Assembly (NCBI GenBank): GCA_023267275.1
Contig: JAHFNO010000007.1
Span: 1 to 57,766, forward strand
Direction: 5' to 3'
DNA from: Candidatus Nomurabacteria bacterium
GTDB taxonomy: Bacteria > Patescibacteriota > Minisyncoccia > Phycocordibacterales > UBA9973
Length of the DNA: 57,766 nucleotides
Position numbers and translations under genes: made by a program. Below, piece by piece: positions 9,958 to 50,903 of the stretch; within the stretch, counting starts at the first letter, position 1; the number at the start of each line of letters is the position of its first letter. A model generated the notes under the pieces. The model saw nothing but the letters and a program-made list of their open reading frames with translations, was not told the DNA's origin and made no database searches.

Positions 9958-11004
9958 ATGTTCGACAAAATCTACAACACATTTTCAAACGATATTGGTA
10001 TTGACCTTGGTACTGCAAATACGCTTGTGTATTTGAAAGGGCACGGCATCGTCATCAACGAGCCGTCTGTTGTGGCGGTCAACCAAAAAACAGGACGCAT
10101 TGTGGCAGTAGGAATGGAAGCAAAAAATATGCTTGGTCGCACACCAGGGCATATCAAAGCCGTGCGCCCAATTATTGATGGTGTGATTTCAGATTTTGAA
10201 GTGACGGAAGAAATGCTTTCATATCTTATTGCGAAAGCCGAAAAAATTTCAAAGAAATTTTTTCGACCGCGTGTTGTCGTAGGTGTGCCATCTGGAATTA
10301 CGAATGTGGAAATTCGCGCCGTATATGATGCGGCAAAATCTGCTGGTGCACGTGAAGTATTCATTATTGAAGAACCAATGGCTGCAGCTATCGGTATTCG
10401 TTTGCCAGTAAAGGAACCAGTGGGATCAATGATTATTGATATTGGTGGGGGAACGACAGACATCGCCATCATCTCTCTTGGTGGAATCGTGTGTTCAAAA
10501 AATTCTAAAGTAGCTGGCGATCGTTTGAACTCAGATATCATTTCTTATTTGCGCGATGAATTTAAATTGCTCATCGGAGAAAAAACAGCAGAAAATGTAA
10601 AGATTGCTATTGGTTCAGTACTCGAAGGTAGTTTTATGGAGGCACAAGTTCGCGGACGTGATTTGGTCACCGGACTTCCACGTGAAGTTATTATTACCGA
10701 TTCAGATATTCGCGAAGCAATCGCTCCTGCAATTAATGATCTTGTTGATGGAATAAAAGAAGTACTCGAAACAACGCCACCAGAAATTCTCTCCGACGTA
10801 ATGCACCGTGGAATTGTGCTCACTGGCGGTGGGGCAATGCTCGTTGGCCTCGACCACTTACTTGAAGGAGTTTTGAAATTTCCTATCTACGTTGCCGAGG
10901 ACCCACTCACTGCCGTGGCGCGTGGAGCCGGTGTTGTTCTCGATTCAATAGATGAATTCCGTGAACAGCTCGTCAGCGCTACACATAATTTGCCACTGAG
11001 GTAG
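9958..11004 (+). CDS. mreB: rod shape-determining protein MreB
   Basis: IGIDLGTANT, EEPMAAAIG, DIGGGTTD, LTGGGA. Confidence 0.98.
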   Translation: MFDKIYNTFSNDIGIDLGTANTLVYLKGHGIVINEPSVVAVNQKTGRIVAVGMEAKNMLGRTPGHIKAVRPIIDGVISDFEVTEEMLSYLIAKAEKISKKFFRPRVVVGVPSGITNVEIRAVYDAAKSAGAREVFIIEEPMAAAIGIRLPVKEPVGSMIIDIGGGTTDIAIISLGGIVCSKNSKVAGDRLNSDIISYLRDEFKLLIGEKTAENVKIAIGSVLEGSFMEAQVRGRDLVTGLPREVIITDSDIREAIAPAINDLVDGIKEVLETTPPEILSDVMHRGIVLTGGGAMLVGLDHLLEGVLKFPIYVAEDPLTAVARGAGVVLDSIDEFREQLVSATHNLPLR

Positions 11005-11010
11005 AAAATC

Positions 11011-11109
11011 AAGTCTATAGACTCTAGTCTTTAGTCTATAGAGTGTATGCAAATAATAAGACTTTGTATTTATTACTAGAGACTAAAGACTGTAGACTAA
11101 AGACTAATT
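11011..11109. repeat. gene-less inverted heptamer cassette matching the four-helix-bundle gene flanks
   Basis: tagtctt/tagtcta left arm and actagag/actaaag right arm; 11083-11107 is the exact reverse complement of 47406-47430. Confidence 0.9.
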
Positions 11110-11112
11110 CAT

Positions 11113-11904
11113 ATGCATAATCGTCAATTTTCTCCATCACATAGCAAAGCCAGAACGATGCGCATATCTGGCGCAGTAATTGTTCTTGCACTGGTTTTTA
11201 GTATTCCCGTTACTCGCAACGCCGTTCGTTCTAGTATTCATGGAGTTGGTATGGCGATTGCTCGTAGCACTGGAGCTGTGGGAACATGGTTTGGCTCTAT
11301 CGGCACGGCTATTCGTTTCAAGTCTTCACTCGAAGCAGAAAATACTGATTTGAAAAATAAAATTTCTGCGCTTGCTTCGCAAAATGCGATGCAAAGCGAG
11401 CTTTCTTCGGAGAATGCCGATTTGAAAGCGACGCTCGGAAGATCTGAACACAATACATTTACACTCGCTGTTGTTTTGGAAAAACCACCACACTCAATGT
11501 ATGACACTATTATTATTGATGGGGGGAGCAAAGTAGGATTTGCAGTGGGGCAGAGTGTTTACACAAACGGCGAAACTCCAATCGGTACAATTACTGATGT
11601 GTATCCAAATTCTGCGTTGGTAAAACTTTTTTCAACTTCTGGAGAAAAAACAGAAGCGCGCCTCTCTCCATCAAATATCGATGTGACACTTGTAGGACAA
11701 GGTAGTGGCAATTTTTCTGCAACAGTTCCGCATGATTTACCGATTGCAAATGATATTGTCGCAGTTACAAAAGAATTAAATGCACATGTTATTGCACAAT
11801 ATCAAAAAGTCACATCAGATCCACGTGATCCATTTCAAACACTTCTCCTTTCTGCTCCAGTAAATATGAACGAACTCAATTTTGTAGAAGTGAAGAAGAA
11901 CTAG
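11113..11904 (+). CDS. mreC: rod shape-determining protein MreC
   Basis: TM, coiled coil (ENADLKATLG), IIIDGGS..G..VG beta domain; follows mreB. Confidence 0.9.
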   Translation: MHNRQFSPSHSKARTMRISGAVIVLALVFSIPVTRNAVRSSIHGVGMAIARSTGAVGTWFGSIGTAIRFKSSLEAENTDLKNKISALASQNAMQSELSSENADLKATLGRSEHNTFTLAVVLEKPPHSMYDTIIIDGGSKVGFAVGQSVYTNGETPIGTITDVYPNSALVKLFSTSGEKTEARLSPSNIDVTLVGQGSGNFSATVPHDLPIANDIVAVTKELNAHVIAQYQKVTSDPRDPFQTLLLSAPVNMNELNFVEVKKN

Positions 11905-46270: not shown

Positions 46271-46771
46271 TTACTTTTGATTTCGACGCTTCATCTCGCT
46301 AATCTCTTCACCCAAAGCCTTCAGTGAATGTTCGATGCGTTCGAGCACTTCACGCTCAATAATTTCTTCTTTTGTTTCTTTTTCATCGTCCTCCTGGATG
46401 TCTTCCACATCTTCTTGAATCTCGTCGACATCTTCCTGAATTTCATCAATGTCTTCCTGGATTTCTTCCACATCTTCCTGGATTTCCTCCACGTCTTCTG
46501 ACACTTCCTCAAGTTGTTTTGCCTGGCGATTGACGCTCATTTGAATAAATATTGAAAGATAGATTGCTTCGAGCGAAACTATTGTGGTAAGCACGAGCAA
46601 AATGGTATTGAACGGCACTCCAAAAAAATACAAAAGAAACGAAACAATAAACATCGCCGTGTGAAATACGAGAGAACCAGTGGAGCCGATTGAACGCGTT
46701 GCTCGCATGGAAACATATTCAAGAAGTGATTCGTTTGTGAGTCGAGGGTTGCGATTTTTTCGAGCTATCAT
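46271..46771 (-). CDS. DUF1003-like membrane protein with acidic heptad coiled coil
   Basis: IGS...LTTIVSLEAIYLSIFIQMSVNRQ, then EDVEEIQ-type repeats. Confidence 0.8.
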   Translation of the reverse strand: MIARKNRNPRLTNESLLEYVSMRATRSIGSTGSLVFHTAMFIVSFLLYFFGVPFNTILLVLTTIVSLEAIYLSIFIQMSVNRQAKQLEEVSEDVEEIQEDVEEIQEDIDEIQEDVDEIQEDVEDIQEDDEKETKEEIIEREVLERIEHSLKALGEEISEMKRRNQK

Positions 46772-46842
46772 AGAAATTTTGAGTTTTGCATAAGCGTGCC
46801 CTTACGATTGAAAATTAAGCCTTTTTATTATACTATGGGTTC

Positions 46843-47397
46843 ATGGATACTCAAACAACAAAAGGTTCAAAATTTACTAAATGGGCGATGATTATTGCAA
46901 TCGTTGTTGTTCTCAATTTGTTTTTCAATTATGCGATCTCTCTCGTATATAAAGCACCTGCCTACGAAGATTTTATAAAACCAACACAGGTAGTTGAGCC
47001 GATCACTACAAAAGATGATTGTTTGAAAGTGGGTGGTCAGTGGACCGATCCAGATACTCGCTACGAAAATATTCCAACTCCTGGAATGAAAAGTGCACCA
47101 GCTGTTGGGTATTGTGATCCAAATTACACGAAGCAAATGGAATTCAATACAGCTACAAAAAATTATAGCCGCACAGTATTTATTATTCTTGTGATACTCG
47201 GCGTAATTTCACTCGGACTTTCTGCTCTGTTTACCAATGCAATACTTTCGCCTGCATTTTCTTGGGGTGGGGTACTTTCCTTGATCATTGCATCAATGCG
47301 CTACTGGAGTGACGCAGACAATTTTGTAAAAGTACTTATTCTTGGAGTTGCTCTCGGTGCACTCATCTGGCTCGCGGTTAAAAAATTCCAAAATTAA
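46843..47397 (+). CDS. hypothetical multi-pass membrane protein
   Basis: TM, Cys-containing loop (CLKVGGQW, GYCD), then three TM segments. Confidence 0.8.
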   Translation: MDTQTTKGSKFTKWAMIIAIVVVLNLFFNYAISLVYKAPAYEDFIKPTQVVEPITTKDDCLKVGGQWTDPDTRYENIPTPGMKSAPAVGYCDPNYTKQMEFNTATKNYSRTVFIILVILGVISLGLSALFTNAILSPAFSWGGVLSLIIASMRYWSDADNFVKVLILGVALGALIWLAVKKFQN

Positions 47398-47399
47398 AC

Positions 47400-47430
47400 T
47401 AGTCGTTAGTCTTTAGTCTACAGTCTTTAG
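47400..47430. repeat. left heptamer arm of four-helix-bundle cassette
   Basis: tagtcgt tagtctt tagtcta cagtctt tag. Confidence 0.9.
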
Positions 47431-47432
47431 AA

Positions 47433-47801
47433 ATGCCAGAACAAACAAAAATAAACTCATTTAAAGACTTGATTGTTTGGCAAAAAAGCTTCCAGCTTGT
47501 TAGGCAGATATATAAAATAACTGAAAAAATACCATCTACCGAAATGTATGGATTGAAATCTCAGATGCAGAGGTCATCAGTTTCTATTCCTTCAAACATT
47601 GCAGAGGGGTTTTACCGAAGAACACCAAAAGATTTTAAACAATTTTTACATATAGCATTTGGTTCAACCGCTGAACTTGAGACACAGTTGCTGTTGTGTA
47701 AAGAGCTGTATTCGATTAATATCGAAGAAGAAGGAAAATTGCTTACAGAAGTTAGTAAAATGCTCAGAGTATTTATTACTAAACTAGAGACTAAAGACTA
47801 A
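47433..47801 (+). CDS. four helix bundle protein (23S rRNA IVP / TIGR02436-like)
   Basis: SFKDLIVWQKS...EMYGLKSQMQRSSVSIPSNIAEG..R...F..IAFGSTAELETQL. Confidence 0.95.
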   Translation: MPEQTKINSFKDLIVWQKSFQLVRQIYKITEKIPSTEMYGLKSQMQRSSVSIPSNIAEGFYRRTPKDFKQFLHIAFGSTAELETQLLLCKELYSINIEEEGKLLTEVSKMLRVFITKLETKD

Positions 47802-47817
47802 GCACTATAAACTATGA
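47783..47817. repeat. right heptamer arm; contains the cassette stop codon and the leuS ATG
   Basis: actagag actaaag actaagc actataa actatga. Confidence 0.9.
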
Positions 47818-50800
47818 ATAATTACGATCATACGAAAATAGAAAAAAAATGGCAGAAGGAATGGGATACAAAAAAAACCTACGCAACTGCATCCTCTAAA
47901 AAAGCGAAAGGTAAAAAACCTTTTTATGTACTTGATATGTTTCCGTATCCATCTGGTGCAGGTCTTCATGTAGGTCATCCTCGCGGGTATATTGGTAGTG
48001 ATGTGATTGCGCGAAAAATGCGTATGGAGGGATACAATGTATTGCATCCAATGGGTTATGACGCTTTTGGTCTGCCTGCAGAACAATACGCAATCCAAAA
48101 CAATATTCATCCGCGCAAAGCTGTAGAACAAAATGTAAAAACATTTGAGCACCAGCTTTCTATCCTTGGTCTCTCATATGACTGGTCACGAAAAATAAAT
48201 ACAACTGATCCAGAGTATTACAAATGGACACAATGGATTTTTGAAAAAATATATGAATCCTGGTTTGATACTGAGAAAAATTCTGCACGACCAATAGCCG
48301 AACTTGTTGCACTATTTGAAAAGCGTGGCAACGTCGGTATTTCTGCGTGTTCATCAAATACTCAATTGTTTTCTGCAAAGGAGTGGCTGCTGATGAGCGA
48401 GATGGAAAAGCAAAATACACTCATGCAGTATCGCCTCGCATATGAAGGATATTCAGAGGTGAATTGGTGTCCTGAACTCGGCACGGTGCTCGCCAACGAC
48501 GAAATCGTTGATGGTCCAAATGGTCCAGTATCAGAACGTGGCGGATATCCTGTAGAAAAGAAAACAATGCGCCAATGGTTTATGCGTATTACTGCATATG
48601 CGGATCGACTTATTTCTGGTCTCGACAATCTCGACTGGCCAAGCCACATCAAAGAAATTCAAAAAAATTGGATCGGAAAAAGTGAAGGAGCAGAAATCGA
48701 GTTTAAAGTTGAAAGTGTAAAGTCGAAAGTCGGTACAATCAAGGTATTTACGACACGAGCGGATACTCTATTTGGTGTGACGTATGTTGTGCTCGCGCCA
48801 GAACATCCATTAATCTCAAATCTCAAATCTCAAATCTCAAATCTGACTGAAGTTGAACAATACCTTGCAGAAGCAAAAAAGAAAGACGACATTATTCGTG
48901 CATCTACCGACAAGGAAAAGAGTGGTGTTGAGCTGAAAGGCATTCGCGCAATCAATCCGGCAAACGGCGAAGAGGTGCCAGTATGGGTAGCAGATTATGT
49001 GTTGCCACAATATGGCACGGGAGCAGTAATGGCCGTACCTGCGCACGACGAACGAGATTTTGCATTTGCGAAGAAATATAATTTGCCGATGAAGCAGGTT
49101 GTTAAGCCTGTGTTTATTGATCCTATAAATCCACCACGATTCGGACTTAGTGAAGTTGTTCGTAATACTGTTTATATTTTTTTAAAAAACAAACAAACAG
49201 GTTTATACGCATTATTGCGCTGGCATGGAACTCTTGAAGGTATTACTACTGTGGTAATGGGCGGACAAGAAGAAGGAGAGACTCGCGAAGAGGCTTGTCT
49301 TAAAGAAATTAAGGAAGAAACTGGTTTAGTGAATGCTTGTTTTGTAAAAGAAATGCCATGGGTATCAGATGCCAAATATTGTGCTTCGCATAAAAATCAA
49401 AATCGGTTATCTATTTCATATGCATATTTATATGAAATTGATTCACTTGATGGGCAAATATTAGTTTCAGAAGAAGAAAAAAAGTTAGCTACACTTTATT
49501 GGGGTACAGCAGAAGAATTAGCTAAAAAAGTTCCTGAGCATCAAAAATATTTATGGGCACAGTTGTGTGTAGTGTCTCCAGTTTTAAACGATGGTTTATT
49601 AATGAATTCTGGAAAATTTGACGGACTGTCATCAGAAGAAGCTCGAGAAAAAATCACTCAATCCGTCGGAGGAAGAATTGTTACGAAGTTTAAACTTCGC
49701 GATGCTATTTTTGCACGTCAGCGATATTGGGGCGAGCCGATTCCACTTTTTACCAAGGATGGAATTATTCACGAAGTCGCAGAGAAAAAATTACCACTCG
49801 AACTACCGAATGTAAAAAGTTATGAGCCGACTGGCACCGGAGAGAGCCCACTTGCCGGAGTTGCTTCATGGGTAAAAGCTGGATACGAGACAAATACAAT
49901 GCCGGGTTGGGCGGGAAGTTCTTGGTATTTCTTGCGCTATGCCGATCCAAAAAATAAAAAAGCTTTTGCCGATAAAAATGAACTCGATTATTGGTTCGAC
50001 AAAAAGAATCAGGGAGGAGTAGATGTGTATGTGGGTGGAGCGGAACATTCTACCGGACACTTGCTCTATTCGCGTTTTTGGCATCAATTTCTTTTTGATA
50101 TGGGATTTGTTCCAACACCAGAACCATTTCAAATGCTTCGAAATCAAGGAATGATTTTGGCTTCCGATGGACGCAAAATGTCAAAGCGATGGGGAAATGT
50201 AATCAATCCTGACGATATTGTAAAAACGTATGGAGCAGACACGCTTCGTTTGTATGAAATGTTTATTGGACCATTTGATTCGAGTTTGCCATGGCAGACC
50301 GATAGTATTATCGGTCCACGACGTTTTATTGAACGTGTTTGGAAAATGGGGGCGCGTGTCCTCGAAACAAAATCAAAAACTACAAGCGCTGATGCAGAGC
50401 GTGCAATTCATTTTGCTATCAAAAAAGTAAGTGAAGATATTGCAAGCTTTGGTTTCAACACGGCAGTGTCTGCAATGATGATTTGTTTGAATGAAATGGA
50501 AAAAGGGGAAACCATCTCGATAGCTGATTTCAAAAAGTTTTTGCAATTGCTTGCACCGTTTGCGCCATATGTTTCTGAAGAACTCTGGCACGAAATCTCG
50601 AATCTTGAATCTCGAAACTCAAATCTTCAGATACAAGATACAAGAAATGAGATACAAGTTTCAAGCATTCATCTTTCTGGTTGGCCAATGTTTGATCCCG
50701 CAAAACTTGTTTCAGATACTATGACAATAGTTGTTTCGGTAAACGGTAAACCACGCGAACATCTTACTGTTGCTCGAACCGCTACGCAAAAGGATATTGA

Positions 50801-50903
50801 GGACATGGCACGTCAATCAGAAAAGGTGCAAACATTTTTGCAGGGAGTAGAACCAAAGCGGGTGATTTATGTACCAGAGAAATTAATTAATTTTGTGCTG
50901 TAA
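47814..50903 (+). CDS. leuS: leucine--tRNA ligase with inserted NUDIX domain
   Basis: MFPYPSGAGLHVGH, CP1 FTTRADT/GTGAVMAVPAHDERD, RQRYWGEPIP, KMSKR. Confidence 0.98.
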   Translation: MNNYDHTKIEKKWQKEWDTKKTYATASSKKAKGKKPFYVLDMFPYPSGAGLHVGHPRGYIGSDVIARKMRMEGYNVLHPMGYDAFGLPAEQYAIQNNIHPRKAVEQNVKTFEHQLSILGLSYDWSRKINTTDPEYYKWTQWIFEKIYESWFDTEKNSARPIAELVALFEKRGNVGISACSSNTQLFSAKEWLLMSEMEKQNTLMQYRLAYEGYSEVNWCPELGTVLANDEIVDGPNGPVSERGGYPVEKKTMRQWFMRITAYADRLISGLDNLDWPSHIKEIQKNWIGKSEGAEIEFKVESVKSKVGTIKVFTTRADTLFGVTYVVLAPEHPLISNLKSQISNLTEVEQYLAEAKKKDDIIRASTDKEKSGVELKGIRAINPANGEEVPVWVADYVLPQYGTGAVMAVPAHDERDFAFAKKYNLPMKQVVKPVFIDPINPPRFGLSEVVRNTVYIFLKNKQTGLYALLRWHGTLEGITTVVMGGQEEGETREEACLKEIKEETGLVNACFVKEMPWVSDAKYCASHKNQNRLSISYAYLYEIDSLDGQILVSEEEKKLATLYWGTAEELAKKVPEHQKYLWAQLCVVSPVLNDGLLMNSGKFDGLSSEEAREKITQSVGGRIVTKFKLRDAIFARQRYWGEPIPLFTKDGIIHEVAEKKLPLELPNVKSYEPTGTGESPLAGVASWVKAGYETNTMPGWAGSSWYFLRYADPKNKKAFADKNELDYWFDKKNQGGVDVYVGGAEHSTGHLLYSRFWHQFLFDMGFVPTPEPFQMLRNQGMILASDGRKMSKRWGNVINPDDIVKTYGADTLRLYEMFIGPFDSSLPWQTDSIIGPRRFIERVWKMGARVLETKSKTTSADAERAIHFAIKKVSEDIASFGFNTAVSAMMICLNEMEKGETISIADFKKFLQLLAPFAPYVSEELWHEISNLESRNSNLQIQDTRNEIQVSSIHLSGWPMFDPAKLVSDTMTIVVSVNGKPREHLTVARTATQKDIEDMARQSEKVQTFLQGVEPKRVIYVPEKLINFVL
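48704..48731. repeat. heptamer array in frame in leuS
   Basis: taaagtt gaaagtg taaagtc gaaagtc, encoding KVESVKSKV. Confidence 0.75.
48812..48846. repeat. heptamer array in frame in leuS
   Basis: aatctca x4 plus aatctga, encoding ISNLKSQISNL. Confidence 0.9.
50594..50665. repeat. inverted heptamer arm pair in frame in leuS
   Basis: aatctcg aatcttg aatctcg aaactca aatcttc | agataca agataca agaaatg agataca agtttca ag. Confidence 0.85.

What the first reader, a model, noticed from the sequence alone, without database searches (positions are those of the whole stretch)
47400..47817. Four-helix-bundle gene cassette with inverted heptamer arms, plus a sequence-matched empty site between mreB and mreC
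Seen: the IVP/TIGR02436-like gene is bracketed by inverted heptamer arrays (tagtctt-type on the left, actaaag-type on the right). The right arm supplies its stop codon and the leuS ATG. At 11011-11109 the same arms enclose only about 33 bp. 11083-11107 is the exact reverse complement of 47406-47430 (25 nt), and gtatttattact-agagactaaagact at 11066-11091 matches the gene's 3' end (47769-47799) apart from a 5-nt indel. Inference: these are full and empty alleles of a mobile cassette that encodes no recognisable transposase or recombinase. Known: this fold is shared with the DGR accessory protein bAvd, a pentameric nucleic-acid binder.
Basis: partly seen in the sequence, partly recalled or inferred. 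Interest (0 to 1): 0.88.

Follow-up and report, generated by a model that had tools for sequence, protein, structure and literature searches.

The report
Heptamer-armed four-helix-bundle gene cassette

Summary
Gene 47433-47801 (PF05635/TIGR02436) is flanked by inverted TAGTCTT-type heptamer arrays. A geneless hairpin with the same arms lies between mreB and mreC: it has a 25-nt exact reverse-complement match and shares 13 nt of the gene's 3' end. These are two copies at different loci, not alleles.

The whole about 410-nt cassette, arms included, is missing from 7 of 7 syntenic same-genus genomes, where the junction is 15-33 nt.

The design is family-wide. In this genome, 6 of 7 testable paralogues have their own inverted arms, against 56 of 1126 other genes. 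Across many phyla, 56 of 75 homologues have them, against 9 of 267 controls.

This genome holds 116 period-7 arrays (period 8 gives 1; a shuffled genome gives 0). Array counts track PF05635 copy number: 16 of 16 against 6 of 25 relatives, and rho 0.68 in 120 genomes of the phylum.

The nearest precedent is the Coxiella 23S rRNA IVS, which has heptamers in a stem cut by RNase III.

Best reading: an IVS-type selfish hairpin cassette at an operon junction, with geneless derivatives. RNase III processing, protein-repeat binding and the means of movement are inferred.

The parts
46843..47397 (+). Upstream host gene (184-aa predicted membrane protein). Its TAA stop (47395-47397) abuts the left arm.
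   Evidence: ORF list. Orthologues sit directly upstream of leuS in 7 same-genus genomes. No Pfam family reaches its cut-off.
47395..47400 (+). TAAACT, left copy of a 6-nt direct repeat that brackets the cassette (a candidate target-site duplication).
   Evidence: Read. The second copy is at 47808-47813. No comparable duplication was seen at the other two insertion sites compared, so this is weak.
47400..47430 (+). Left arm: about 4.5 tandem heptamers of TAGTCTT type, with TAG in all three frames.
   Evidence: It pairs with the right arm in the MFE and centroid folds.
47433..47801 (+). 122-aa four-helix-bundle protein gene (23S rRNA IVS protein family).
   Evidence: PF05635 E 7.8e-37 and TIGR02436 E 1.9e-34. 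PDB 2gsc_A at E 3.2e-21. The Q44/R47/S51/N55/E58 face is invariant among 7 paralogues.
47784..47807 (+). Right arm: AGACTAA-type heptamers, the inverted complement of the left arm. It contains the gene's stop codon.
   Evidence: Flank complementarity is 14 of 16.
47808..47813 (+). TAAACT, right copy of the direct repeat, directly before the leuS ATG.
   Evidence: Read.
47814..50903 (+). leuS, the downstream host gene. It carries three in-frame heptamer arrays (48705-48732, 48807-48849, 50593-50623) and an inserted NUDIX domain.
11011..11043 (+). Left arm of the geneless hairpin between mreB (9958-11004) and mreC (11113-11904).
11044..11075 (+). Loop of the geneless hairpin. Its last 12-13 nt match the 3' end of the 4HB gene (47769-47781).
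11076..11107 (+). Right arm of the geneless hairpin. 11083-11107 is the exact reverse complement of 47406-47430.
   Evidence: Hairpin energy is -36.8 kcal/mol, z -5.0.

Best explanation
The locus is an IVS-type selfish hairpin cassette. A four-helix-bundle (PF05635) gene is carried in the loop of a long stem made of two inverted arrays of tandem heptamers. The unit (about 47400-47807) was inserted, arms included, into the few bases between the stop codon of a membrane-protein gene and the start of leuS, in the same orientation as both. It has no promoter or terminator signal of its own, so it is presumably transcribed with the host operon. In the transcript the arms should pair. By analogy with rRNA intervening sequences of the same gene family, RNase III would then cut the stem, releasing the cassette RNA and separating the flanking cistrons. 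The hairpin between mreB and mreC is a geneless derivative of the same arm lineage, so a second copy, not an allele. Together with about 15 other short heptamer hairpins and about 90 solo arrays in this genome, it would be non-autonomous progeny of such cassettes, with the 4HB protein as the element's own factor. Shown here: the anatomy, the insertion polymorphism, the family-wide arms, purifying selection on protein and arms, and the link between gene copy number and arrays. Inferred: co-transcription, RNase III cleavage, any protein-repeat binding, and the mechanism of movement.
For: Anatomy. The arms close both the MFE and centroid folds of 47385-47830 (-95.5 kcal/mol, z -3.5, 0 of 100 shuffles as good).

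Insertion: in 7 of 7 same-genus genomes with memb-leuS synteny the junction is 15-33 nt, with no arms and no gene. The C31 cassette site has junctions of 3-31 nt in the 4 relatives read base by base, and small or no gaps by BLAST coordinates in 6 more. The C23:33109 cassette is orthologous in G013 and G002. That site has a 0-2 nt gap in 5 genomes by BLAST coordinates and was read as stop-T-ATG in the one (L127) read base by base.

Enrichment: 6 of 7 testable paralogues have flanks complementary at 13 of 16 or better, against 56 of 1126 other crude genes. Across phyla the figures are 56 of 75 homologues against 9 of 267 shifted controls. Period-7 self-match of 11 of 14 or better occurs in 38 of 75 left arms and 35 of 75 right arms, against 23 of 534 control flanks.

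Operon context: 7 of 7 cassettes here are co-oriented with both neighbours, with 25-48 nt to the upstream gene. In the 75 loci, 65 of 73 upstream and 58 of 73 downstream neighbours are co-oriented. There is no promoter excess and there are 0 terminator-like sites.

Selection: orthologous cassettes give dN/dS 0.06-0.12 with dS about 2, yet their arms are nearly identical.

Arms travel with the gene: protein identity rises with heptamer similarity, from 0.48 at distance 3-4 to 0.61 at distance 0 (permutation 0 of 1000), including one cross-phylum pair.

Link to arrays: PF05635-positive relatives have TAG-heptamer arrays in 16 of 16 genomes, against 6 of 25 negatives, and 8 of 8 against 0 of 8 within the genus. 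In an evenly drawn sample of 120 genomes of the phylum, Spearman rho is 0.68, with 5 or more hits in 34 of 68 positives against 4 of 52 negatives. Only 6 of 79 hits in this genome lie within 100 nt of a 4HB ORF.

Precedent (PMC4990558, passages read): the Coxiella IVS has the S23p ORF in the loop of a 28-bp terminal-inverted-repeat stem. It has 3-4 tandem GACAGAT heptamers before the ATG. RNase III cuts it in vitro at the first repeat.

This genome has two RNase III genes.
Against: No RNA data exist for this organism: only DNA runs were listed. Co-transcription and RNase III cutting are therefore untested.

No mobilising enzyme is identified. A flanking direct repeat (TAAACT) is seen at 1 of 3 sites compared.

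The stem model does not explain solo arrays, which lie on either strand (19 sense, 20 antisense). It also does not explain the 41 of 116 arrays inside ORFs.

19 of 75 homologues fall below my arm threshold. One paralogue here scores 12 of 16. Only 4 of 8 pass the stricter 15 of 18 test.

In the phylum sample, 17 of 68 PF05635-positive genomes have no TAG x4 array and 13 of 52 negatives have at least one. Related genomes are not independent.

The Coxiella authors concluded that their S23p is probably not translated.
Confidence: 0.65

Rival explanations
1. The heptamer hairpins are REP/REPIN-like repeats moved in trans by a Y1 (RayT/IS200-like) tyrosine transposase. The 4HB gene is only a passenger in the loop.
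For: The genome has 5 PF01797 hits: two IS200-type TnpA of about 150 aa and three RayT-like proteins of 225-243 aa. Among 41 relatives, arrays occur in 14 of 17 Y1-positive genomes against 8 of 24 Y1-negative ones. 5 of the 6 array-positive, PF05635-negative genomes have a Y1 gene. REP doublets that form hairpins are an established class (PMC3116915; search listing and abstract start only).
Against: Within the genus, 4 of 8 array-positive genomes have no Y1 hit, whereas 8 of 8 have PF05635. The Y1 genes here are not flanked by heptamer arrays, and the IS200 copies have ordinary non-heptamer hairpins. Each cassette has a different arm sequence, which is hard to square with one transposase that recognises a fixed end. 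Arms co-vary with the 4HB protein.
Confidence: 0.15
2. The 4HB gene is a domesticated cellular gene. Its arms are a cis-regulatory RNA structure controlling mRNA stability or translation. Its patchy distribution reflects ordinary horizontal transfer and loss, not self-mobility, and the other arrays are unrelated.
For: There is strong purifying selection on the protein (dN/dS 0.06-0.12). The start codon lies 2 nt after the left arm and the stop codon lies inside the right arm, so translation and stem formation could be coupled. No transposase lies in the cassette.
Against: There are 8-10 diverged copies in a 1-Mb genome and 0-10 copies among species of one genus. Insertions fall exactly between tightly packed housekeeping genes at three sites. 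Geneless copies with the same arms exist. Different hairpin types occupy the same mreB-mreC junction in different species. Array counts scale with gene copies.
Confidence: 0.12
3. Heptamer arrays are ordinary simple-sequence repeats made by polymerase slippage. Their position around the 4HB gene is coincidence in a repeat-rich genome.
For: Heptamer repeats are reported as over-represented among bacterial simple-sequence repeats, with slippage proposed as the cause (cited in PMC4692102; passages read). Repeat number varies among Coxiella strains (PMC4990558).
Against: Empty sites in relatives have no arrays. The enrichment is 6 of 7 against 56 of 1126 in the same genome and 56 of 75 against 9 of 267 across phyla. 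Arrays were found in none of the 8 congeners without a PF05635 match over the cut-off. Arms stay conserved while synonymous sites are saturated.
Confidence: 0.04
4. The protein is the Avd accessory factor of a diversity-generating retroelement.
For: There are distant matches to bAvd (PF22296, E 0.0034) and to NF033474 (E 0.0038). The genome has 3 RT genes. A review states that Avd and PF05635 are homologous (PMC10053308; passages read).
Against: Both matches are far below their cut-offs (18.3 against 40 bits; 17.5 against 80 bits). None of the 3 RT hits lies on the window's contig C30; the nearest RT-paralogue pair, on C22, is about 12 kb apart. In relatives the sub-threshold Avd-like hits sit next to RT genes, and two such genomes (G010, G012) have 0 arrays. 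RT presence tracks arrays poorly: 11 of 16 RT-positive genomes against 11 of 25 RT-negative ones.
Confidence: 0.02

Closest known systems
23S rRNA intervening sequences that carry an S23p/IVP ORF (Coxiella burnetii helix 45; also reported for Leptospira). PMC4990558, passages read.
   Same: Same protein family in the loop. Terminal inverted repeats form a stem of about 28 bp. Tandem heptamers lie just upstream of the ATG, and their number varies between strains. The element size is similar (428 nt there, about 410 nt here). There is no transposase and the origin is unknown. RNase III excision is shown there.
   Different: This cassette lies between protein-coding genes of an operon, not in an rRNA helix: no rRNA is found in the window. 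The gene here is under purifying selection, whereas the Coxiella ORF is described as decaying. Here the element has geneless and solo-array relatives genome-wide.
Heptanucleotide tandem-repeat arrays: Xanthomonas GGGAATC with 70-75 convergent pairs (PMC4692102), Beggiatoaceae/cyanobacterial/Bacteroidetes TAACTGA (PMC4679880), cyanobacterial STRR (name recalled; the Calothrix heptanucleotides are cited in PMC4692102).
   Same: Tandem 7-nt units of a few copies. Mostly intergenic and close to gene ends. Often in inverted pairs able to form stem-loops. Patchy phylogenetic distribution. Function unknown.
   Different: Those papers describe one heptamer per genome and do not use the terms 'four helix', 'S23' or 'intervening' (0 occurrences). 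Here dozens of heptamer types coexist, and they track PF05635 gene copies.
REP/REPIN-RAYT systems and MITEs
   Same: Short hairpin-forming intergenic repeats in many copies. Non-autonomous copies would depend on a factor encoded elsewhere.
   Different: The arms are internally tandem-periodic and differ between copies. [quoted passage not shown] A target duplication is not consistent.
DGR accessory protein Avd (bAvd)
   Same: Related four-helix-bundle fold. The solved relative 2GSC is reported as a pentamer (statement in PMC4990558).
   Different: No RT, template or variable repeat lies nearby, and scores are below the family cut-offs.
23S_rRNA_IVP genes reported inside cas operons (PMC3936711, passage read)
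   Same: The same gene family is wedged between adjacent operon genes, for example between cmr3 and cmr2 with gaps of 85 and 5 nt by the coordinates quoted. The RxxxSxxxNxxE motif is the same.
   Different: There it was read as a functional CRISPR association. The present data suggest that operon-junction insertion is the family's general habit.

Membership tests
PF05635 / TIGR02436 (23S rRNA IVS protein; four helix bundle protein) | Profile score above the curated cut-off | tested here: met
   PF05635 scores 126.2 bits against 33.8. TIGR02436 scores 118.1 against 24.
PF05635 / TIGR02436 (23S rRNA IVS protein; four helix bundle protein) | Conserved helix-face motif RxxxSxxxNxxE | tested here: met
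   R47, S51, N55 and E58 (plus Q44, E81) are invariant among 7 paralogues. The motif is as quoted in PMC3936711.
PF05635 / TIGR02436 (23S rRNA IVS protein; four helix bundle protein) | Four-helix bundle that assembles into a pentameric ring | not tested
   Only sequence homology to 2gsc_A (E 3.2e-21). No structure or complex was predicted.
rRNA intervening sequence (IVS) element | Inserted in a helix of an rRNA gene | tested here: not met
   It lies between a membrane-protein gene and leuS. Rfam finds only two tRNAs in the window.
rRNA intervening sequence (IVS) element | Complementary termini form a long stem with the ORF in the loop | tested here: met
   Both the MFE and centroid folds pair 47400-47430 with 47784-47807.
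rRNA intervening sequence (IVS) element | Tandem heptamers between the stem base and the ORF start (Coxiella) | tested here: met
   The comparison is from PMC4990558.
rRNA intervening sequence (IVS) element | Excised from the transcript by RNase III | not testable with these tools
   Two RNase III genes are present. No RNA run is listed.
DGR accessory protein Avd | Profile score above the cut-off, and adjacency to an RT with template/variable repeats | tested here: not met
   NF033474 scores 17.5 against 80 bits and PF22296 scores 18.3 against 40. None of the 3 RT hits lies on the window's contig C30; the nearest RT-paralogue pair, on C22, is about 12 kb apart.
MITE / REP-like non-autonomous element | Terminal inverted repeats and multiple geneless copies | tested here: met
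   16 short hairpins with loops of 9-99 nt were found among 26 inverted pairs. The mreB-mreC copy shares arms with the cassette.
MITE / REP-like non-autonomous element | Target-site duplication and a cognate transposase | tested here: inconclusive
   A TAAACT repeat is seen at 1 of 3 sites. Y1 genes are present but associate with arrays less well than PF05635 does.
Bacterial heptanucleotide tandem-repeat arrays (STRR-like) | Tandem 7-nt units in excess over other periods, mostly outside or at the ends of genes | tested here: met
   116 arrays at period 7, against 3 (period 6), 1 (period 8), 7 (period 9) and 0 in a shuffled genome. 54 are intergenic, 21 at gene edges and 41 inside ORFs.

The most novel reading that the evidence does not exclude
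PF05635 proteins are the element-encoded, repeat-specific factors of a widespread class of hairpin elements. Each paralogue would recognise its own heptamer, as DNA or RNA, and would seed, spread or maintain arrays of that heptamer. On this reading the unexplained heptanucleotide tandem repeats of bacteria (STRR, GGGAATC, TAACTGA and the like), the rRNA intervening sequences, and in-frame heptamer insertions in proteins are all products of one system that moves without a transposase of any known kind. In favour: arms are conserved while synonymous sites are saturated. Arm type co-varies with protein sequence. 61.8% of the 110 arrays outside cassettes match a resident cassette's unit within one mismatch, against a mean of 34.5% for foreign decoy sets (0 of 500 as high). 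Copy number and array count scale together.
Probability: 0.3. Interest if true: 0.9.

Novelty: new variant of a known kind. Interest (0 to 1): 0.78.

Why it matters
Three puzzles have been described separately and none has a mechanism: (1) rRNA intervening sequences with an ORF, (2) the widespread "four helix bundle protein" family of unknown function, and (3) the over-representation of 7-base tandem repeats in bacterial genomes. This locus and the surveys built on it tie them together. The gene family almost always sits in a hairpin of inverted heptamers. The unit is gained and lost at operon junctions. Genomes with the gene have the arrays, and most genomes without it do not.

If this holds, it gives a testable origin for heptamer arrays, which are used as fingerprinting markers and have been proposed as regulators. 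It also reinterprets IVP genes found inside cas and other operons as insertions. And it points to a mobile element that carries no recognisable transposase.

For annotation, such cassettes and arrays split operons, break assemblies, and add low-complexity segments to essential proteins such as LeuRS.

Tried and rejected
Target-site duplication. TAAACT brackets the focal cassette, but I saw no comparable repeat at the C31 and C23:33109 sites. It is not used as evidence of transposition.

Terminator or promoter reading. There are 0 terminator-like sites and no promoter excess in 46800-48000. The terminator-like hits in 10700-11400 lie outside the hairpin. The hairpin has an AT-rich stem and no T-run, so it is not an intrinsic terminator.

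Rfam. No family covers either element.

"Stop-codon insulator" idea. TAG is enriched in left-arm units (21 of 38) and CTA in right-arm units (20 of 35), against about 12% expected. This used only arms with period-7 score of 11 of 14 or better: 38 and 35 of 75. However, solo TAG arrays show no strand bias (19 against 20), and several families (AAACACC, AAAGTCG) have no stops. I keep it as an observation, not a mechanism.

Covariation in the three orthologous cassettes. There are too few changes to count.

RT involvement. It associates poorly with arrays.

Loop remnants as proof of descent. The 13-nt match alone is weak (40 of 1000 shuffles).

Expression. No RNA holder was listed. Contigs laid from two DNA runs showed no joint that skips the cassette, and contigs cannot show rare variants.

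Not used. I did not run the large protein searches, structure prediction or complex prediction, because family membership was already clear. I did not check whether this genome's rRNA genes carry a cassette.

Supplementary files of the papers were not seen. The MacGregor and Rehm repeat tables could hold neighbouring-gene lists that bear on the 4HB link.

Literature. No paper linking PF05635 genes in general to heptamer arms turned up in searches. Subscription-journal papers are not covered: the original Leptospira IVS report by Ralph and McClelland, and the Xcc0516 structure paper by Lin et al.

Rows dropped. 5 of 80 loci were unusable. One search used 49 loci plus 5 cassettes of this genome that had clear arms. 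In one search I counted 10 genomes with only weak PF05635 matches (E above about 1e-8) as negative, whereas the tool reports 9 below the cut-off, so one may be misplaced. My gene calls are a crude longest-ORF caller.
Full report
1. WHAT IS THERE

The window is contig C30 of a 1.02-Mb, 33-contig genome with about 40% G+C.

At 47433-47801 (+) lies a 122-aa ORF. It matches PF05635 (23S_rRNA_IVP, 126.2 bits, cut-off 33.8) and TIGR02436 (four helix bundle protein, 118.1 bits, cut-off 24). Its matches to bAvd and to the DGR Avd model are far below their cut-offs. Its only solved relative by sequence is 2gsc_A, XCC0516 (E 3.2e-21).

Two bases upstream of the ATG ends a run of TAGTCTT-type heptamers (47400-47430). 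The last codons, the TAA stop and the next few bases (47784-47807) form the inverted complement. The upstream gene ends at 47397 and leuS starts at 47814, so the arms fill the whole intergenic space.

Between mreB (stop at 11004) and mreC (ATG at 11113) lies a 97-nt hairpin with the same arms around about 32 nt of loop. The motif occurs 6 times in the window against 0.06 expected.

As RNA, the long-range pairing of the two arms closes both the MFE and centroid structures of 47385-47830 (z -3.5). The short element folds into a near-perfect hairpin (-36.8 kcal/mol, z -5.0).

2. THE GENE PLUS ARMS IS AN INSERTED UNIT

Seven same-genus genomes keep the membrane-gene/leuS synteny. In all seven the junction measured is 15-33 nt, which includes up to five unaligned end codons of the upstream gene, so only a few bases separate its stop from the leuS ATG. 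None has heptamers or a gene there. The remaining four leuS loci had no upstream-gene match within the stretch fetched.

Two other paralogue sites give the same picture:
- The C31 cassette is replaced by 3-31 nt in the four relatives I read base by base. By BLAST coordinates there is little or nothing in six more. G013, G006, G015 and G008 hold other inserts there.
- The C23:33109 cassette is orthologous in G013 and G002. By BLAST coordinates the flanks abut within 0-2 nt in G001, G011, G004, G007 and G005. In the one read base by base (G005, L127), stop and ATG are separated by a single base.

So the true empty allele has no arms, and the arms arrive with the gene.

The mreB-mreC junction is a hot spot:
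- This genome has the TAGTCTT hairpin.
- G006 has a GGTGTTT-type heptamer hairpin at the same place.
- G013 has a solo CTAGACC array.
- G015 has 5 nt.
- G002, G011 and G001 have no array.
- G004 and G008 have a non-heptamer inverted repeat.
- G005 has another inverted repeat plus heptamers.

The hairpin here shares a 25-nt exact match with the leuS cassette. It also shares 13 nt that in both elements directly abut the right arm. The TAGTCTT family is otherwise rare in the genome (solo arrays at C6:18802 and C17:25475). I therefore read the hairpin as a geneless copy of the same lineage at a second locus, not an allele.

3. ALL PARALOGUES, AND THE FAMILY AT LARGE, HAVE SUCH ARMS

An iterated HMM search of six-frame ORFs finds 8 paralogues. 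The Pfam search adds a fragment at a contig start. Each paralogue has its own flanking heptamers.

On a uniform measure (best complementary 16-mer between 70 nt upstream and 55 nt downstream), 6 of 7 testable paralogues score 13 or more, and the seventh scores 12. The comparison is 56 of 1126 other crude genes. With a stricter test (15 of 18), 4 of 8 pass. Periodicity is weak in C23:14991 and C21.

I then fetched the 80 best of 587 relatives found in one-genome-per-species contigs. Their record titles include Gammaproteobacteria, Bacteroidota, Patescibacteria, Clostridia, Planctomycetota, Elusimicrobiota, Ignavibacteriota and Methanophagales. Of these, 75 were usable:
- 56 of 75 have complementary flanks at 13 of 16 or better, against 9 of 267 position-shifted controls.
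- Period-7 self-match of 11 of 14 or better occurs in 38 of 75 left arms and 35 of 75 right arms, against 23 of 534 control flanks.
- The heptamer differs from locus to locus.
- Left-arm units contain TAG in 21 of 38 cases and right-arm units contain CTA in 20 of 35, against about 12% expected.

Proteins with the same heptamer are more alike: mean identity is 0.61 at heptamer distance 0 and 0.48 at distance 3-4 (0 of 1000 permutations reach this). One example is a Ruminococcus and a Thiohalocapsa locus with the same unit at 58% protein identity. So the arms are inherited and transferred with the gene.

Cassettes sit in the sense orientation inside gene strings. All 7 here are co-oriented with both neighbours. 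In the 75 loci, 65 of 73 upstream and 58 of 73 downstream neighbours are co-oriented, with median gaps of 58 and 46.5 nt.

4. SELECTION

For the cassette shared by G000, G013 and G002, dN/dS is 0.06-0.12 and dS is about 2, which is saturated. Yet the arms differ at only a few positions. Both the protein and the primary sequence of the arms are therefore constrained. Part of each arm overlaps the first and last codons, but the non-coding parts are conserved too.

5. THE GENOME IS FULL OF HEPTAMER ARRAYS, AND THESE TRACK THE GENE FAMILY

A periodicity scan finds 116 arrays at period 7. Other periods give 44 (period 4), 13 (period 5), 3 (period 6), 1 (period 8) and 7 (period 9). A shuffled genome gives 0.

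Of the 116 arrays, 54 are intergenic, 21 are at gene edges and 41 are inside crude ORFs. The types most often found inside ORFs (AAACACC, AAAGTCG) are stop-free on both strands.

30 of 116 arrays have an inverted partner within 1.2 kb, against 1 of 116 random controls. The 26 pairs break down as follows:
- 16 are short geneless hairpins.
- 4 enclose 4HB genes.
- The rest bracket, among others, rpmB and the rplQ-rplM-rpsI string.

Across 41 relatives I compared the pattern TAG-N4 x4 with PF05635 matches over the cut-off:
- The pattern occurs in 16 of 16 positive genomes, with 2-158 hits each.
- It occurs in 6 of 25 genomes without such a match.
- Within the genus the split is 8 of 8 against 0 of 8.
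- On an mreB tree of 12 of these genomes, the 4 negatives included form two separate, well supported pairs.

In an evenly drawn sample of 120 further genomes of the phylum, rho is 0.68. The share with 5 or more hits rises with copy number: 8% (0 copies), 15% (1), 47% (2-3), 72% (4-6) and 77% (7 or more).

This is not just the cassette arms being counted. In this genome only 6 of 79 hits lie within 100 nt of a 4HB ORF.

61.8% of the 110 arrays away from cassettes match a resident cassette's unit within one mismatch. Decoy sets of foreign cassettes give a mean of 34.5% and a maximum of 60% (0 of 500 as high).

Two caveats apply. Kin are not independent. And 17 of 68 positive genomes in the phylum sample have no TAG x4 array.

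6. WHAT MOVES IT

Nothing in the cassette looks like a transposase.

The genome has 3 RT genes, 2 RNase III genes, and 5 Y1 transposase-like genes.
- RT presence tracks arrays poorly. The Avd-like sub-threshold hits next to RTs occur in genomes without arrays.
- Y1 presence tracks arrays moderately (14 of 17 against 8 of 24). It covers 5 of the 6 array-positive, PF05635-negative genomes. But it is missing from 4 of 8 array-positive congeners, and the Y1 genes here are not flanked by heptamers.

The mover remains unknown. I keep a Y1-driven, REP-like mechanism as the main rival.

7. COMPARISON WITH WHAT IS KNOWN

The closest precedent is the rRNA intervening sequence. In Coxiella the S23p ORF lies in the loop of a 28-bp terminal-repeat stem. 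Three to four GACAGAT heptamers precede the ATG and vary in number among strains. RNase III cuts in the stem at the first repeat in vitro (PMC4990558; passages). IVP ORFs also occur in rRNA insertions of CPR bacteria (bioRxiv 10.1101/2024.02.27.582315; passages).

Heptamer arrays, including 70-75 convergent pairs per Xanthomonas genome, have been described without reference to this gene family (PMC4692102; PMC4679880).

IVP genes wedged between cas genes were read as a CRISPR association (PMC3936711).

Eight literature searches found no paper that states the general link. Subscription journals and supplements were not visible.

I therefore file the locus as a member of PF05635/TIGR02436. It is IVS-like in design, but it is not an rRNA IVS (location feature tested, not met) and not a DGR Avd (features tested, not met).

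8. VERDICT

The most likely mechanism is an operon-junction hairpin cassette that is co-transcribed and processed at its heptamer stem, with geneless derivatives. It rests on solid comparative evidence for insertion, architecture and constraint. It rests on analogy for the RNA-processing step. The protein's role is open.

Noticed in passing
window 48705-48732, 48807-48849, 50593-50623 (inside leuS): Three in-frame heptamer arrays lie in LeuRS surface segments (KVESVKSKVG, LISNLKSQISNLTEV, EISNLESRNSNLQ). The second replaces a segment of equal length in the five relatives whose sequence spans it, so it looks converted in place rather than inserted. Genome-wide, 41 of 116 arrays lie inside ORFs; the commonest such types (AAACACC, AAAGTCG) are stop-free on both strands.
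   Followed up: partly
window 49161-49547 (LeuRS residues 450-578): A NUDIX hydrolase domain (PF00293, 35.5 bits, cut-off 21.1; Nudix box GGQEEGETREEACLKEIKEETGL) is inserted in LeuRS after the editing domain, making the protein 1029 aa long.
   Followed up: partly
G000 contig C21:38365-39378 (locus L134): One of the two RNase III genes is followed directly by a degenerate 4HB cassette with internal stops (1 TGA, 1 TAG) and AAAGTNT-type arms.
   Followed up: no
G000 contig C24:19838-21201 and C7:23005-23510: Heptamer arrays and hairpins punctuate ribosomal-protein genes. They lie upstream of rplQ, between rplM and rpsI, after rpsI, and around rpmB.
   Followed up: partly
G000 contigs C5:7975-8014 and C6:6494-6525: Arrays of AGGGTTT/TTTAGGG units. 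As I recall, this is the same unit as the plant-type telomere repeat; probably coincidence.
   Followed up: no
window 47814-47822 and 11113-11121: Both genes that follow a TAGTCTT-armed element begin ATG-[A/C]AT-AAT. Codons 2-3 of leuS (NN) differ from the seven syntenic relatives read (KA, KE, KV or RE). Either the insertion reshaped the first codons, or this is chance.
   Followed up: no
G000 contigs C31:46425-47030, C22:67940-68611, C1:22728-23216; relatives G010:C8, G012:C34, G006:C26, G008:C19: Three reverse-transcriptase genes are present in this genome. In relatives, sub-threshold Avd-like four-helix-bundle ORFs sit right next to RT genes, so these are probably DGRs and are distinct from the heptamer-armed cassettes.
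   Followed up: partly
window 46271-46771 (- strand): A 166-aa protein with a tandem acidic repeat (EEIQEDV-like units). The contigs laid on it show high summed depth and back-joints, as expected for a repeat shared with other organisms in the sample.
   Followed up: no
G000 contigs C21:58184-58861, C21:72767-73477, C28:13841-14572: Three RayT-like Y1 proteins of 225-243 aa (N-terminal YH[IVL]YNRG motif), besides two IS200-type TnpA genes. They are candidate trans-acting mobilisers of hairpin repeats.
   Followed up: partly
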